From Methanocellales archaeon (GTDB lineage: Archaea > Halobacteriota > JAWCLZ01), in contig JAWCMA010000007.1 in NCBI GenBank assembly GCA_038850285.1, positions 1 through 30,753 of the forward strand: a stretch of 30,753 bases of DNA, read 5' to 3'. Each line of letters begins with the position of its first letter. The stretch's first letter is position 1. The notes beneath the pieces are model-generated. The model saw nothing but the letters and a program-made list of their open reading frames with translations, made no database searches and had not been told where the DNA came from. Below are positions 23,109-29,557 of this stretch, piece after piece. Made by a program: the position numbers and the translations under genes.

Positions 23109-23202
23109 GCCGAGGTAGCCTAGCGGCAAGGCGCAAGCCTGGAGTTTTTCAGAGAGCTTGTGGGGCGAAAGTCCCTCAGGAGTTCAAATCTCCTCCTCGG
23201 CG
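23109..23202 (+). tRNA. tRNA-Ser(GGA) with a 10-nt intron at 37/38 (23145-23154)
   Basis: Acceptor GCCGAGG/CCTCGGC plus G discriminator; D stem GCC/GGC; anticodon stem CAAGC/GCTTG with spliced loop CT-GGA-GA; variable arm GGGGC-GAAA-GTCCC; T arm AGGAG-TTCAAAT-CTCCT; CCA not encoded. Confidence 0.95.
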
Positions 23203-26979: not shown

Positions 26980-27942
26980 TCAAGCAGAGGCAATTGAGTT
27001 CTTAAGCACCTCGGGATTTATCCTTCCTGCGCTATATGTTTTCCCAGTTTTAATGTTGGTGGCTGATAGCGCTGCAGGGGCGAAGAGTGCATTGTCTATT
27101 TTATAGAAATCAAAGCCAGCGGCTTTATAAATTTCATAAAACGGCTTGCCATAGTCCCTAGCATTGGAAGAGGGACATTTGCTTATTAATTCAGCTAGCT
27201 TGGCATCATCATCGAAGTCAACCGTGTAATATGTAACTCCTCCATAAAAAAGCGCGTCATTCGCCATGCCCATTGCCTTATCTGCATCTGGATGGGTTGG
27301 CATGACGGGAGCATATCCCGCGCCAAATAAGACCTTCAAGGGATCAAAGCCTAGTACTTCTAATCTAAATAATCCAGTTTCCACAATCCTAGCAGCAATT
27401 TGCACCGCACCAGCAACACTTGCAGTGGGCGAGAGCACGAGATAAACATTCTCAGGCTTAACATTACACTGCTGTGCAACAATCAATGCTGCCTCATCTG
27501 GGGGTTTTTCCTTGGTTTCAAGCACTGCAATCGCTATATCTGAGATATCAGAATATTTTATCTTCTCAAACAGCTTTTTAGGTTTCTTCGCAAGTGCTCT
27601 CGCTGGACCTGAACCAATTGCGAAAAATTTTCCATCAGCAGTTTTAATGTTCCAGCCTGCGAACTGTGCAGCTAGTAGAGAAATCGCAGGGTGATCGGTG
27701 GTCACCACGACGGTTGGAAGGTCTAGCTCGCCATATTTCATATAGCTAAGCGAAGCAGTGCCATAGCCTCCCATGCAGATCTCTGAAACCCTTATACCTG
27801 CGAGATATCCTCCTGGTGCTTTCAATCCGGTATCTATAACGGTTGCTCCACAGGGAAGTTTTTCAACTAATACACCATATTCCTGGGGGTTATTTAAAAG
27901 CTCTTTGACAGCTTTAAACGCTCCCTTGTTCACACTTAGCAT
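26980..27942 (-). CDS. mch: Methenyltetrahydromethanopterin cyclohydrolase
   Basis: MLSVN, EICMGG, QFAGW, GSGPARAL, APT-like SPTAS, QIAARIVE, ND..FYGG, YGKPF, FDFYKID..LFAPA; AGGTGG RBS before ATG 27942. Confidence 0.97.
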   Translation of the reverse strand: MLSVNKGAFKAVKELLNNPQEYGVLVEKLPCGATVIDTGLKAPGGYLAGIRVSEICMGGYGTASLSYMKYGELDLPTVVVTTDHPAISLLAAQFAGWNIKTADGKFFAIGSGPARALAKKPKKLFEKIKYSDISDIAIAVLETKEKPPDEAALIVAQQCNVKPENVYLVLSPTASVAGAVQIAARIVETGLFRLEVLGFDPLKVLFGAGYAPVMPTHPDADKAMGMANDALFYGGVTYYTVDFDDDAKLAELISKCPSSNARDYGKPFYEIYKAAGFDFYKIDNALFAPAALSATNIKTGKTYSAGRINPEVLKNSIASA

Positions 27943-28067
27943 AAAACCACCTATATTTAGAAACATCGAAATAACTAATAAGCCTTTATATTTGGATTGA
28001 AATCTTAACACCTTCCTTCTTTGACTTATAAATTTTTTGGATCCAATAATTGATCAAACTTTGTTAT

Positions 28068-28080
28068 CAAAAACTATAAG
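28068..28080 (+). promoter_or_regulatory. Putative BRE/TATA promoter for the structured RNA
   Basis: CAAAAACTATAAG lies about 25-30 nt upstream of the first GC-rich paired segment (28104-28106), which is normal archaeal spacing. Confidence 0.6.
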
Positions 28081-28103
28081 AATCTCAGAGTTTAACAACA
28101 TAT

Positions 28104-28480
28104 TTGCCCGGCCAGTTATGATTCACTAGCCGCGGAATAGGGATCATAACTGGAAGAGCGCGTGCTTCCCGATGGGCAAGCTAGAAGATTCGAGGCCGTC
28201 CTACATCAGACTCACTGTTGGAACGGGCGCTAACAGGTAGATCTGTAAACCACTTTCCTGAAACCTGGGAATGGGCTAATCACCCATATACGTTAAGGAA
28301 ATTGGGTAGGAATGGTCAGCGGCTTCACCCGCAAGGGGCGTGAAAAAGCGCAAGTTCCGTCCAGAAATCGGCAATCGTGCCGCCGAGGTACCTAAGCGGC
28401 ATAGAGGCCGTGAGGGTGGATGGAAGCCTGGTCACCGGATGCACGATCGAATCCGAACCGGGTCAGCCCATCACCATAAC
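28104..28480 (+). ncRNA. Candidate large structured non-coding RNA of unknown family (about 375 nt)
   Basis: No ORF of 60 aa or more; 54% GC by hand count (206/380 over 28101-28480) inside very AT-rich flanks; at least nine nested helices; G-U pairs and a GCAA tetraloop work on the plus strand. Confidence 0.75.
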
Positions 28481-28488
28481 CCAATACT

Positions 28489-28550
28489 AATTTTTAATTA
28501 TAATTAAAAAAAATAATTAAAAAATTTAATTTAAAATTTATTAATTAAAT
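28489..28550. terminator. AT-only tract with a 20-bp palindrome, probable bidirectional terminator
   Basis: TTTTTAATTATAATTAAAAA at 28491-28510 and T runs on both strands, between the candidate RNA (+) and the fpoF stop (-). Confidence 0.55.
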
Positions 28551-28558
28551 AGGAGAGT

Positions 28559-29557
28559 TCATCCGCTTTTTGCAGTTTCAGTTTTTGCAGCTACTGTAGC
28601 TGGAGCCGCTGCAGCAGGCTTTGGGGCATTTTCAGTGTGCTTTAGAGTGGTTAACTTTTTAACCACGTCCAGTTTTACCTCTGGCTTAATCTCAAATTTA
28701 TCTCGAATTAAATCAAACATTTGCTTGCCTCTATCGGTGCGTATAAATACTGTGTTCCAACCTTCTGGCGAGCCAACTGAGCCGCATGATATATCTGCGT
28801 AATAAGCAGTGAAATCAAGGCAACTGTGACAAGGAGTTCTCGCTAGGGGCTTTACCTCTTTTAGAGAAACTGATTTCACTACATCAGGCGCGGCATATGC
28901 CCAGAATTTACCCTTAGTGATATTCATCTTGGTTATTTCCCTGCAGGAGAGACCCAGCTTCTTAGCTATGATTTCATTGCATATGGTATCATAGGTGAAG
29001 CTCTCCATGCAGAAGATGCCAACTATTAAGGCAATTCTCTTTTCATATCTCCCCAGTTTGCGGCGAAGTAAATTTGCAGCATGGGCTTGACAGGGCACTC
29101 CAACTACCATGATCTTTTTATACTTCCTTGAGGTTTCGCGCAGGACTGAGAGCACTGGCACGCTACTATACTTCGTACCACTCATTTTTATAACCTCAGC
29201 AGGGGTGGTTATCACCACAGGTGAAGCACGCCAATCTGCATCGCGCTCCACGCCTATAACTGCATCGATTGCACCTATTTCCAGCAGATTCTTTGCAATT
29301 CCAGAGACTGTTGCTCCATCTTGCCCTACAAGTCCACTTCTGGCGATGAACATCTCCTTTATGTTATCAAATTCATTTTCAGTGGGATATGGGTGAAGCA
29401 CTGGGCATACTTCACCGCAGACTTCGCAGGCTATGCAGTCTCCGCCGATCTTTGCCGCATCTGTAACTGTGATCGCGGTGGTGGGGCAGAATGCTGCACA
29501 TCCAGCACACGCGGTACATCGCTTGTTTTTGACAACACCTACGATGGGAATTGCCAT
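28559..29557 (-). CDS. fpoF: F420H2 dehydrogenase input subunit (FpoF/FqoF; FrhB family with N-terminal 2x[4Fe-4S])
   Basis: CTACAGCAAFCP and CIACEVCGEVCP, GQDGATVS, SGTKY, VGVPCQ, GIFCMESF, CHSCLDF, ADISCGSVGSPEGW; directly downstream of mer. Confidence 0.85.
   Translation of the reverse strand: MAIPIVGVVKNKRCTACAGCAAFCPTTAITVTDAAKIGGDCIACEVCGEVCPVLHPYPTENEFDNIKEMFIARSGLVGQDGATVSGIAKNLLEIGAIDAVIGVERDADWRASPVVITTPAEVIKMSGTKYSSVPVLSVLRETSRKYKKIMVVGVPCQAHAANLLRRKLGRYEKRIALIVGIFCMESFTYDTICNEIIAKKLGLSCREITKMNITKGKFWAYAAPDVVKSVSLKEVKPLARTPCHSCLDFTAYYADISCGSVGSPEGWNTVFIRTDRGKQMFDLIRDKFEIKPEVKLDVVKKLTTLKHTENAPKPAAAAPATVAAKTETAKSG

What the first reader, a model, noticed from the sequence alone, without database searches (positions are those of the whole stretch)
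28104..28480. Unassigned, independently transcribed large structured RNA between mch and fpoF-mer
Seen: ORF-free 54% GC island with a TATA-like box upstream and an AT-only tract downstream. Helices found by hand: 28103-110/28173-180; a 13-bp stem 28112-124/28141-153; 28194-204/28306-317, which closes a junction holding 28215-221/28230-236 (extended by 28207-210/28242-245) and 28250-259/28296-305 (inner 28271-275/28283-287); 28324-328/28340-344 capped by CC-GCAA-GG; 28378-383/28396-401; and a long 3' hairpin 28415-440/28451-475. Known: SRP RNA needs the helix-8 signature and RNase P RNA needs the CR-I/P4 signature; I see neither. Inference: an undescribed archaeal ncRNA (ribozyme, scaffold or regulator) sitting among H4MPT/F420 C1 genes.
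Basis: partly seen in the sequence, partly recalled or inferred. Interest (0 to 1): 0.88.

Follow-up and report, generated by a model that had tools for sequence, protein, structure and literature searches.

The report
New large structured RNA in methanogen
A roughly 390-base, highly folded non-coding RNA gene that matches no known RNA family sits beside a methane-pathway gene in an uncultured hot-spring methanogen lineage, and its function is unknown.

Summary
Window 28104-28480 is an ORF-free island of 54.6% GC in a 41.5% GC window. It has a TATA-like box upstream and a 64-nt AT-only tract downstream.

- **Fold:** the plus strand folds far better than shuffles (z -3.98, 0 of 100). The minus strand does not (z -1.40).
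- **Known families:** no Rfam family matches. The genome's real RNase P and SRP RNAs lie on other contigs.
- **Homologs:** they lie beside mch, in the same divergent arrangement, in all 3 genomes of this 4-species class where mch is assembled. None was found in about 148 other genomes of the phylum.
- **Pairing:** between two genera, 104 modelled pairs are 97.6% kept, with 7 compensatory changes. Slid controls gave 0-2.
- **Expression:** contigs from three RNA libraries hold it.
- **Coding and copy number:** no coding signal and no second copy.

It is a new, lineage-restricted, stable structured RNA, and its function is not shown. My best guess is the core of a stable particle. Three conserved palindromic hairpin loops hint at self-assembly.

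The parts
28069..28081 (+). A-rich BRE-like run followed by a TATA-like box (CTATAAGA, 28074-28081). It lies inside a roughly 60-nt block (28040-28103) conserved between genera.
   Evidence: Sequence. The block is nearly invariant in the window, G002 and G003. The spacing of about 25 nt to the conserved 5' end is read against recalled archaeal promoter geometry.
28104..28495 (+). The RNA gene, about 390 nt. The 5' end is inferred at 28102-28112 and the 3' end at the T5 run.
   Evidence: Conservation starts at 28104 and ends at about 28482. RNA-library contigs of two studies start at 28111/28112 with no loose end, where a DNA run goes on; this is a weak hint. Fold z is -3.98.
28112..28153 (+). 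P1: a 13-bp stem, a bulged A and a 3-bp apical stem, capped by a 9-nt loop with the palindrome CCGCGG (28130-28135) at its centre.
   Evidence: helix 1: 16 pairs, 1 compensatory, 3 one-sided, 1 broken cell. The loop is identical in the window, G002 and G003, and the X8 RNA contig shows no difference there. Unpaired probability is 0.84-0.86.
28154..28170 (+). J1/2: a conserved linker with one change (C to U) among the sequences compared.
   Evidence: alignment. X8 shows no difference between 28111 and 28194.
28171..28177 (+). P2, 5' strand (GAUGGGC). With its partner it forms the 7-bp helix that closes the whole core.
   Evidence: It pairs with 28466-28472. G to A at 28175 is compensated by C to U at 28468 in G003.
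28184..28326 (+). Central, most variable domain: P3 (28184-187/28323-326 and 28191-192/28320-321), P4 (28194-202/28309-317), then a three-way junction with P5 (28207-245) and P6 (28250-305).
   Evidence: A four-sequence alifold recovers these helices. G003 carries an 18-nt self-pairing insertion inside P6.
28328..28351 (+). P7 (a 3-bp stem with a GCAA tetraloop, 28328-28337) and P8 (28338-341/28348-351). The pairs are invariant.
   Evidence: helices 9 and 10 never vary, so they say nothing for or against.
28355..28425 (+). P9 domain: P9 (28355-363/28417-425), P9a (28369-372/28407-410) and P9b (28377-383/28396-402). A 12-nt loop holds the palindrome GGUACC (28387-28392).
   Evidence: helices 11-13 (2 compensatory, 3 one-sided, 0 broken). 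G003 has GGUACU, still self-complementary through G-U. Unpaired probability is 0.67-0.71.
28426..28463 (+). P10 hairpin (6 bp, an internal loop, 5 bp). Its 10-nt loop holds the palindrome CGAUCG (28444-28449).
   Evidence: helices 14-15. The palindrome is identical in G003. Unpaired probability is 0.85-0.90.
28466..28482 (+). P2, 3' strand (GCCCAUC, 28466-28472), followed by a conserved ACCA (28473-28476) and a conserved tail ending in AACCC.
28488..28551 (.). AT-only tract. T5 at 28491-28495 is the likely terminator of the RNA. The A-runs read as T-runs for the convergent fpoF-like gene.
   Evidence: and the sequence. G003 has a T4 run at the same place. The terminator role is inferred.
26980..27942 (-). 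mch (methenyl-H4MPT cyclohydrolase), transcribed divergently from the RNA. It is the only neighbour conserved across genera.
   Evidence: Pfam MCH, 6.1e-117. The arrangement is the same in G002 and G003. The start at ATG 27942, rather than GTG 28011, is inferred from the Pfam match starting at residue 26 and from the G003 start.
28559..29557 (-). F420 dehydrogenase/hydrogenase beta-like gene (fpoF/frhB family), convergent with the RNA. It is not the neighbour in G003.
   Evidence: Pfam FrhB_FdhB_C 2.1e-40 and FrhB_FdhB_N 4e-19. In G003 the DNA downstream of the RNA reads quite differently; I did not search it.

Best explanation
SHOWN: 28104 to about 28495 (+) is a single-copy gene for a roughly 390-nt non-coding RNA that folds into a conserved multi-helix structure. 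A 5' hairpin (P1) and a conserved linker precede a core that is closed by a 7-bp long-range helix (P2). The core holds a branched variable domain (P3-P6), two small hairpins (P7, P8), a three-tier domain (P9) and a 3' hairpin (P10). The RNA belongs to no Rfam family. It is confined, as far as searched, to one deep-branching class of hot-spring methanogens (4 species representatives; one homolog-bearing genome (G003) is labelled Methanocellales in its record). There it always sits divergent from mch.

INFERRED:
- It is transcribed on its own from the conserved TATA-like promoter, ends in the T-run, and accumulates as a stable RNA.
- It is not a cis-regulator, because no gene follows it on its strand.
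- Mechanism (my odds about 0.3): it acts in trans as the structural core of a stable particle, an RNP or an RNA-only assembly.
- The three apical loops of P1, P9b and P10 each present a conserved, exposed 6-nt self-complementary sequence. These could form symmetric kissing contacts between copies, as in the bacterial OLE, ROOL and GOLLD RNAs.

The confidence figure is for the 'new stable structured RNA gene' claim, not for the mechanism.
For: - **No known family:** the whole window gave 1 Rfam hit at gathering thresholds, a tRNA at 23109-23202. Region 27950-28600 at E<=10 gave only rli62 at E 3.1, 15.9 bits against an 83-bit threshold. RNase P RNA is at G000:C17 (205.8 bits) and SRP RNA at G000:C1 (215.8 bits).
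- **Fold:** z -3.98 on the plus strand, -1.40 on the minus strand.
- **Homologs:** BLAST found it in 3 of 41 genomes including the window's own, all in family f1. G003 is 78% identical over the full length. G002 is 94% identical but cut by its contig end. In all 3 of 3 genomes with an assembled mch, the RNA is divergent from it.
- **Pairing between two genera:** RNAalifold predicted 103 pairs, 7 compensatory, 0 broken. The refined model has 104 pairs, 97.6% of cells paired and 7 compensatory. With partners slid by 1-3 columns, 31-41% are paired and 0-2 are compensatory.
- **Strand:** 14 pairs change on one side only while staying paired. Most of those changes pass through a G-U pair, which would be a mismatch on the minus strand.
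- **Strain variants:** two variants read from RNA-library contigs recover the central helices.
- **Not coding:** at least 3 stops in every frame of both homologs. Substitutions fall 26/23/22 by phase, and there are 1-nt indels.
- **Single copy:**
- **Same class of locus as known stable RNAs:** among ORF-free islands with GC>=0.52 in the 1.28-Mb genome, only 4 of 38 reach 350 nt. These are the SRP RNA, the RNase P RNA, an rRNA-sized piece and this element.
- **RNA libraries:** contigs in 3 RNA runs from 3 studies cover 28111-28363, with k-mer depths of 2570, 1017, 123 and 78. Depth is a poor measure of expression.
- **Palindromic loops:** 3 of the RNA's 4 six-nt palindromes lie in apical loops. 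The MFE fold puts 2 in loops, against a mean of 0.157 in 300 dinucleotide shuffles; 2 or more occurred in 2.7% of shuffles and 3 or more in 0.3%. The genome's RNase P and SRP RNAs have 0. All three are kept in G003, one through a wobble-preserving change. They are 0.67-0.90 unpaired, against a 0.4 average.
- **Precedent:** symmetric kissing loops with palindromic loop sequences hold OLE and GOLLD homo-oligomers together (PMC12286853, passages read).
Against: - Only two full-length sequences exist, plus one 5' fragment and two partial strain variants, so covariation cannot be tested statistically.
- In the shuffle control, 22 of 500 shuffles reach the observed number of compensatory pairs and 13 of 500 reach the observed percentage paired.
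- Several helices (P7, P8, P10b, the P6 tip) never vary.
- In the four-sequence central alignment, 7 of 59 pairs have a broken cell.
- All RNA evidence comes from assembled contigs, which show neither strand nor ends nor level. The 3' third (28364-28480) is not covered by any RNA contig laid.
- Total six-nt palindromes are not enriched: 4 against 5.8 expected. The loop pattern was noticed after the fact.
- No partner protein, target or activity is known.
- Outside the class the search covered a sample of 151 genomes of the phylum, one 19-mer scan of species genomes and two short-pattern scans of metagenomes. Wider relatives could have been missed.
Confidence: 0.72

Rival explanations
1. It is a trans-acting regulator tied to C1 metabolism. 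It would sense a methanogenic cofactor or metabolite (H4MPT, F420 or similar), or a regulatory protein, and control mch or other pathway genes.
For: mch is the one neighbour kept across both genera. In the window the other neighbours are fpoF-like and mer. The RNA's promoter block is unusually well conserved for intergenic DNA and holds palindromes that could bind a regulator.
Against: No gene lies downstream on its strand, so it is not a riboswitch leader. By my reading of the likely start codons and TATA boxes, the mch transcript should not overlap it. At 390 nt with ten helices it is far larger than known archaeal base-pairing sRNAs (recalled). Synteny within one small class can be mere inheritance. 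The fpoF-mer neighbourhood is not kept in G003.
Confidence: 0.12
2. It is a tRNA-like or tmRNA-like molecule. The 7-bp closing helix followed by ACCA would mimic a tRNA acceptor end. RNase P would then cut before 28171, and the 3' end would be used by the CCA-adding enzyme or an aminoacyl-tRNA synthetase.
For: The helix is exactly 7 bp and is followed by ACCA in both full-length homologs, with one compensatory change inside the helix. The P10 hairpin lies two bases before the 3' strand of that helix.
Against: ARAGORN finds no tRNA or tmRNA here, though it also missed the window's intron-bearing tRNA. The Rfam tRNA and tmRNA models give nothing at E<=10. The P10 loop is 10 nt in the window and 9 nt in G003, so it is not a fixed 7-nt T-loop. 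Conservation runs on past ACCA. The 67 nt before the helix are the best-conserved part of the RNA, which is unlike a leader that gets discarded. None of this genome's 28 tRNA genes found by ARAGORN encodes CCA. No SmpB was found in the genome.
Confidence: 0.06
3. It is a ribozyme: a catalytic RNA of a new class, or a very diverged relative of RNase P RNA.
For: Its size, multi-junction core, GNRA tetraloop and strongly conserved unpaired linkers are of the kind seen in large ribozymes (the resemblance is recalled).
Against: No ribozyme family matches at E<=10. A complete RNase P RNA exists elsewhere in the genome. No substrate, cleavage site or mobile-element context is visible, and the RNA is single copy.
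Confidence: 0.07
4. It is not a functional RNA. It could be a GC-rich remnant of a decayed gene or mobile element, or a long minus-strand leader of mch.
For: On the minus strand it would lie between fpoF and mch. Contigs cannot give the strand.
Against: The minus-strand fold is no better than shuffles. The wobble changes only make sense on the plus strand. Compensatory changes and a self-pairing 18-nt insertion argue for selection on structure. There is no frame or periodicity signal. It is single copy. The 3' domain is 91% identical between genera whose Mch proteins are 84% identical.
Confidence: 0.03

Closest known systems
Archaeal RNase P RNA (Rfam RF00373)
   Same: Similar length: the genome's own copy is 368 nt. 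Both are GC-rich ORF-free islands in an AT-richer genome. Both are branched cores closed by a long-range helix, and both are stable RNAs with their own promoter.
   Different: The family model gives no match even at E<=10. A full-length RNase P RNA (205.8 bits) lies on another contig. blastn-short and nhmmer found no similarity to any other locus of the genome.
Archaeal SRP (7S) RNA (Rfam RF01857)
   Same: Size class, GC-rich island, stable RNA.
   Different: No model match. The true SRP RNA (215.8 bits) is on contig C1. The shape is a branched core, not a long rod.
OLE, ROOL and GOLLD: large ornate bacterial and phage RNAs of unknown function that form RNA-only homo-oligomers (PMC12286853)
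   Same: A large, intricately folded orphan RNA found in RNA libraries and restricted to particular lineages. Its apical loops carry conserved self-complementary sequences, the feature that forms symmetric kissing loops in OLE and GOLLD.
   Different: No sequence or model similarity; these families are in Rfam and none hits. It is archaeal, not bacterial or phage. At about 390 nt it is shorter. Oligomerisation here is only inferred.
tmRNA and other tRNA-like ends
   Same: A 7-bp terminal helix followed by ACCA, with a hairpin just before the 3' strand.
   Different: There is no T-arm of fixed size and no ARAGORN or Rfam match. No SmpB was found. The 5' extension and the 3' tail are both conserved.
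GC-rich RNA islands found by base-composition screens of AT-rich thermophile genomes (Hgc RNAs of Methanocaldococcus; recalled, paper not read here)
   Same: The same kind of signal: a GC-rich, ORF-free island in an AT-richer thermophile genome. My own screen of this genome picks out the SRP RNA, the RNase P RNA, an rRNA-sized piece and this element.
   Different: The Hgc families held in Rfam do not match. This RNA is much larger than those as I recall them.

Membership tests
RNase P RNA (archaeal) | Match to the family covariance model at or above its gathering score (84 bits). | tested here: not met
   No match even at E<=10 on 27950-28600 or at gathering thresholds on the window.
RNase P RNA (archaeal) | It is the genome's RNase P RNA locus. 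| tested here: not met
   A full-length match of 205.8 bits lies at G000:C17:23616-23983.
SRP RNA (archaeal) | Match to RF01857 at or above 96.5 bits, and being the genome's SRP RNA locus. | tested here: not met
   No match here. A 215.8-bit match lies at G000:C1:136468-136781.
tRNA / tmRNA | A cloverleaf or tRNA-like domain recognised by ARAGORN or the Rfam models. | tested here: not met
   ARAGORN found 0 genes in the window. This is a weak negative, since it also missed the tRNA at 23109. Rfam gave nothing at E<=10.
tRNA / tmRNA | A 7-bp acceptor helix with a 3' NCCA. | tested here: met
   28171-177/28466-472 followed by ACCA in the window and in G003. Conservation continues beyond it.
tmRNA | The partner protein SmpB is encoded in the genome. 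| tested here: not met
   PF01668 gave 0 matches in G000, which is 93% complete.
Y RNA-like | A Ro60/TROVE protein is encoded in the genome. | tested here: not met
   PF05731 gave 0 matches in G000.
CsrB-type protein sponge | A CsrA partner is encoded; there are many GGA motifs in loops. | tested here: not met
   PF02599 gave 0 matches. GGAA occurs 7 times against 2.2 expected, but the sites are partly in stems and 2 of 7 are lost in G003.
Riboswitch / cis leader | It lies in the 5' UTR of a gene on the same strand. | tested here: not met
   The next genes are convergent (fpoF-like, mer) or divergent (mch).
MITE / repeat element | Several copies in the genome, with terminal inverted repeats. 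| tested here: not met
   One copy by BLAST, blastn-short and nhmmer.
Homo-oligomeric ornate RNAs (OLE/ROOL/GOLLD-like behaviour) | Conserved self-complementary sequences exposed in apical loops. | tested here: met
   CCGCGG, GGUACC (GGUACU in G003) and CGAUCG sit in the P1, P9b and P10 loops, with unpaired probability 0.67-0.90.
Homo-oligomeric ornate RNAs (OLE/ROOL/GOLLD-like behaviour) | Multimers are observed (native gel, SEC, cryo-EM). | not testable with these tools
   No tool here models RNA quaternary structure.
Homo-oligomeric ornate RNAs (OLE/ROOL/GOLLD families themselves) | Match to their Rfam models. | tested here: not met
   No hits.

The most novel reading that the evidence does not exclude
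This would be the first archaeal 'ornate' RNA that builds an RNA-only, or RNA-dominated, multimeric particle. Copies would join through three symmetric kissing loops (the P1, P9b and P10 palindromes), giving each monomer three bonding points. That is enough for closed cages or lattices rather than simple dimers. The particle would be a major stable RNA component of a deep-branching hot-spring methanogen lineage.
Probability: 0.15. Interest if true: 0.9.

Novelty: categorically new. Interest (0 to 1): 0.72.

Why it matters
Large, intricately folded RNAs of unknown function are rare, and almost all described ones are bacterial or from phages. Archaea are credited with few stable large RNAs beyond rRNA, RNase P RNA and SRP RNA (recalled).

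An RNA of about 390 nt with ten or so conserved helices, its own promoter, and presence in environmental RNA libraries would add a new class to that short list. It comes from an uncultured, deep-branching methanogen lineage with small genomes of 1.3-1.9 Mb, in which I would expect each retained gene to matter.

If the palindromic loops do mediate self-assembly, RNA-only quaternary structures would extend from bacteria and phages to archaea. Even if not, the RNA is a clean target for cryo-EM, probing and pull-downs. It is also a marker locus for this lineage in hot-spring data.

Tried and rejected
**Searches for more homologs**
- Metagenome scan with a 20-nt conserved pattern: 0 hits.
- Second scan with a 21-nt pattern: 1 hit (L009). 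On reading it is high-GC DNA that looks coding and is unrelated, so it is chance.
- Species-genome scan with a 19-mer: only the G003 contig.
- Covariance model R1 (3' domain, 172 positions) on 151 genomes sampled from the phylum: only G000 and G003 are real. Four weak hits had E 0.002-0.57 per genome. L012 and L014 lie in what reads as coding DNA, L013 is a short AT-rich intergenic hairpin, and L015 (14.4 bits, the weakest) was not read; none has an Rfam hit. For a moment I read a shared hairpin motif among these as a wider family, then dropped it.
- Model R2 (5' domain, 118 positions) on the same kind of sample: only G000, G002 and G003. All others had E>=0.1 per genome.
- Synteny: the mch loci of 27 other-family genomes have at most 370 nt of ORF-free upstream DNA, and none is GC-rich. 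R1 with filters off, run on 25 of those 27 loci, gave a best E of 0.3.
- G001 (same genus) has neither the RNA nor mch in its assembly, so it says nothing.

**Motifs looked for by eye and not found**
- K-turns.
- Box C/D or H/ACA arrangements.
- A bulge-helix-bulge processing site around P2.
- A conserved internal reading frame (tmRNA-like tag).
- A T-loop of fixed size.
- A 16-nt exact same-sense match of the 3' tail at G000:C1:178399 lies inside a giant ORF and is chance.

**Read-laying results that cannot be used as evidence**
- The RNA-library contigs gave no cover over the mch and fpoF flanks, or over 28364-28480.
- Contig ends at 28159, 28347 and 28355-28363 fit k=31 graph branching at strain differences, not RNA ends.

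**Literature**
- Three full-text searches listed no description of an RNA like this in methanogens or in hot-spring archaea. I judged this from the listings only. Apart from PMC12286853 (passages) I read none of the papers, and supplements were closed.

Full report
**What is in the sequence**

Window 28104-28480 is 54.6% GC. The window as a whole is 41.5% and the spacer 28012-28103 is 25% (profile). A CTATAAGA box at 28074-28081, preceded by an A-run, lies about 25 nt before the point where conservation begins. A 64-nt AT-only run (28488-28551) follows, beginning with a T5 at 28491-28495.

No frame is open. The window and its G003 homolog each have at least 3 stops in all six frames. Substitutions between them fall 26/23/22 by phase, and several indels are 1 nt long.

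The neighbours are mch on the minus strand (Pfam MCH 6.1e-117), then an fpoF/frhB-like gene and mer, both on the minus strand. The RNA is therefore divergent from mch and convergent with fpoF. No gene follows it on its own strand.

**It is more than chance**

The plus strand folds to -148.7 kcal/mol, z -3.98, with 0 of 100 dinucleotide shuffles as stable. The minus strand gives z -1.40, with 5 of 100 as stable.

I screened the whole 1.28-Mb genome (41.4% GC) for ORF-free stretches with GC>=0.52. This returned 38 islands, of which 4 reach 350 nt: the SRP RNA, the RNase P RNA, a 1.9-kb rRNA-sized piece and this element. By this signal it belongs with the cell's large stable RNAs.

**It is not a known RNA**

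- Rfam 15 at gathering thresholds finds only a tRNA at 23109-23202 in the whole window.
- With permissive filters and E<=10 on 27950-28600, the only line is rli62: E 3.1, 15.9 bits against an 83-bit threshold, on the minus strand across the AT tract.
- The genome's RNase P RNA (205.8 bits, C17:23616-23983) and SRP RNA (215.8 bits, C1:136468-136781) are elsewhere.
- ARAGORN reports nothing here, but it also missed the window's intron-bearing tRNA, so this negative is weak.
- The element is single copy by BLAST, blastn-short and nhmmer.

**Relatives**

BLAST of 41 genomes (the window's own plus 40 relatives) found it in 3, all in family f1.
- G003, in a different genus, is 78% identical over the full length.
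- G002, in the same genus, is 94% identical but cut by its contig end after about 130 nt.
- G001 has no match, but it also lacks mch, so that part of its genome is not assembled.

The order and class hold only these 4 species representatives. The G003 contig's record is titled as an uncultured Methanocellales archaeon.

In G000, G002 and G003 the RNA lies divergent from mch. Downstream, G003 has different genes. The roughly 60 nt upstream of the RNA, including the TATA-like box, are nearly invariant across the three genomes.

Nothing convincing was found outside the class.
- Model R1 (3' domain) and model R2 (5' domain) were each run on 151 genomes sampled from the phylum. Only chance-level hits appeared outside f1.
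- The mch loci of 27 other-family genomes show no comparable island.
- Three collection scans with short exact patterns gave only G003's contig and one chance hit.

**Structure and strand**

RNAalifold on the two full-length sequences predicts 103 pairs, 7 with compensatory double changes and none broken. I refined the central domain with two partial strain variants read from RNA-library contigs.

The merged model has 104 pairs in 15 helices.
- 97.6% of cells are paired and 7 pairs are compensatory.
- 14 pairs change on one side only and stay paired.
- Sliding the 3' partners by 1-3 columns drops pairing to 31-41% and compensatory pairs to 0-2.
- The shuffle control is only modest with two sequences: 22 of 500 shuffles reach the compensatory count.

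Most of the one-sided changes pass through G-U pairs, which would be mismatches on the minus strand. Together with the fold asymmetry and the positions of the promoter and terminator, this sets the strand as plus.

G003 carries an 18-nt insertion that pairs with itself inside P6. That is how structured RNAs usually grow.

- 28103-110/28173-180 gives way to the long-range P2 (28171-177/28466-472). The change at 28175 is compensated at 28468.
- 28324-328/28340-344 gives way to P3, P7 and P8.
- The outer part of the long 3' hairpin gives way to P9 and P2.

**Transcription**

The locus is held by hot-spring metagenomes. I laid four runs on 27600-29000.
- A DNA run (X3) matches at 100% identity.
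- Three RNA libraries from three studies give contigs over 28111-28363. One is a hot-spring metatranscriptome; the other two are microbial-mat metatranscriptomes, possibly from a single campaign.
- Those contigs have k-mer depths of 2570, 1017, 123 and 78. One is identical to the window; the others are about 90-93% identical.
- Contig depth is a poor measure of level, and contigs show no strand.
- Two RNA contigs from two studies start at 28111 and 28112 with no loose end, where the DNA contig continues. This is a weak hint of the 5' end.
- The other contig ends fit graph branching 30 nt from strain differences.

**Anatomy worth noting**

(a) Conservation is uneven. The 5' 118 nt (P1, linker, start of the core) has 93% mean column identity in three sequences, and the X8 variant shows no difference from 28111 to 28194. 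The 3' domain is 91% identical between genera. The central P4-P6 domain carries most substitutions and indels.

(b) The core is closed by a 7-bp helix followed by ACCA, in both homologs. This looks like a tRNA acceptor end. However, conservation continues for six more bases, the upstream 67 nt are the best-conserved part, and the adjacent hairpin loop varies in length. None of the genome's 28 ARAGORN tRNA genes encodes CCA, and no SmpB was found. I rate the tRNA-like reading low.

(c) Three of the RNA's four 6-nt palindromes sit in the middle of apical loops: CCGCGG in the 9-nt P1 loop, GGUACC in the P9b loop and CGAUCG in the P10 loop.
- A 6-nt palindrome cannot pair with itself within one loop, so it is free for contacts between molecules.
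- All three are kept in G003. The one change there (C to U) keeps self-complementarity through G-U.
- Their unpaired probability is 0.67-0.90, against a 0.4 mean.
- In 300 dinucleotide shuffles folded the same way, the mean number of loop palindromes is 0.157. Two or more occur in 2.7% of shuffles and three or more in 0.3%. The MFE fold of the real RNA shows 2 and the consensus model shows 3.
- The genome's RNase P and SRP RNAs show none.
- The overall palindrome count is not high (4 against 5.8 expected), and I noticed the pattern after the fact.

(d) GGAA occurs 7 times against 2.2 expected. Five of the seven are kept in G003. No CsrA-like partner is encoded, so I draw nothing from this.

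**How it most likely works**

Shown: it is a conserved, structured, single-copy RNA gene that is not cis-regulatory and belongs to no known family.

Inferred: it is transcribed on its own and accumulates as a stable RNA.

My preferred mechanism (about 0.3) is a trans-acting structural core of a stable particle. The three loop palindromes would offer symmetric kissing contacts between copies. The precedent is the homo-oligomeric OLE, ROOL and GOLLD RNAs. In those, symmetric kissing loops with palindromic loop sequences hold the chains together, and switches from one palindrome to another were used as evidence (PMC12286853, passages read).

Rivals, with my odds:
- a trans regulator or sensor tied to C1 metabolism (0.12);
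- a new ribozyme (0.07);
- a tRNA-like mimic (0.06);
- no function (0.03).

The remaining odds belong to 'a stable functional RNA of some other kind'.

**Comparison and novelty**

It behaves like the large stable RNAs (RNase P RNA, SRP RNA) in size, composition and gene layout, and like the bacterial ornate RNAs in being a large orphan. It fails every membership test I could run for those families. I therefore file it as a new RNA class of unknown function.

Limits:
- There are only two full-length sequences.
- RNA evidence comes from contigs only.
- Genomes outside the class were sampled, not searched in full.
- Three literature searches were judged from their listings, and supplements were closed.

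Noticed in passing
window 23109-23202 (+): A tRNA-Ser (GGA) gene with an intron and a long extra arm. Rfam scores it at 50.2 bits. The session's ARAGORN tool missed it, but ARAGORN run with intron search in the script box found it.
   Followed up: partly
window 27942 vs 28011 (-): The mch ORF listed from GTG 28011 (343 aa) probably starts at ATG 27942, giving about 320 aa. The Pfam match begins at residue 26, and the G003 gene starts at the equivalent ATG behind a purine-rich stretch.
   Followed up: partly
window 28040-28103: The RNA's upstream block is almost invariant between genera and holds two palindromes (GGATCC, and TGATCA in the window). It may be a regulator binding site shared by the divergent mch and RNA promoters.
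   Followed up: no
G002:C35 end (L003) and window 28344-28520 in run X3: Assemblies break inside the 3' half of the RNA. The G002 contig ends about 130 nt into it. The DNA contigs of run X3 stop at 28344 and resume at 28520. The cause could be strain micro-heterogeneity or an assembly filter; it is unexplained.
   Followed up: no
G000:C1 around 178399: There is a reading frame open for about 7,517 codons, possibly a giant surface protein.
   Followed up: no
G000: C1 4669-4878, C2 82847-83084, C4 40920-41145, C19 10417-10622, C15 16917-17104, C33 292-486: Further GC-rich, ORF-free islands of 190-240 nt. None overlaps an ARAGORN tRNA call. They could be 5S rRNA, guide RNAs or other unannotated RNAs.
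   Followed up: no
G000 whole genome: ARAGORN finds only 28 tRNA genes. None is for Ala, Asp, Glu, His, Thr or Trp. It also makes one 'tmRNA' call on C3 that overlaps tRNA-Pro and is probably false. Detection is likely incomplete because of unusual introns or missing contigs.
   Followed up: no
L014 1830-1930 (G079:C27): Several (4-5) tandem copies of a roughly 22-nt unit sit just after a long ORF that reads like a replication protein. This looks like an iteron-type plasmid or viral origin.
   Followed up: no
L002 490-830 (G003:C71): Downstream of the G003 RNA lie two short minus-strand ORFs. By eye they looked like a small toxin-antitoxin pair, but I did not search them.
   Followed up: no
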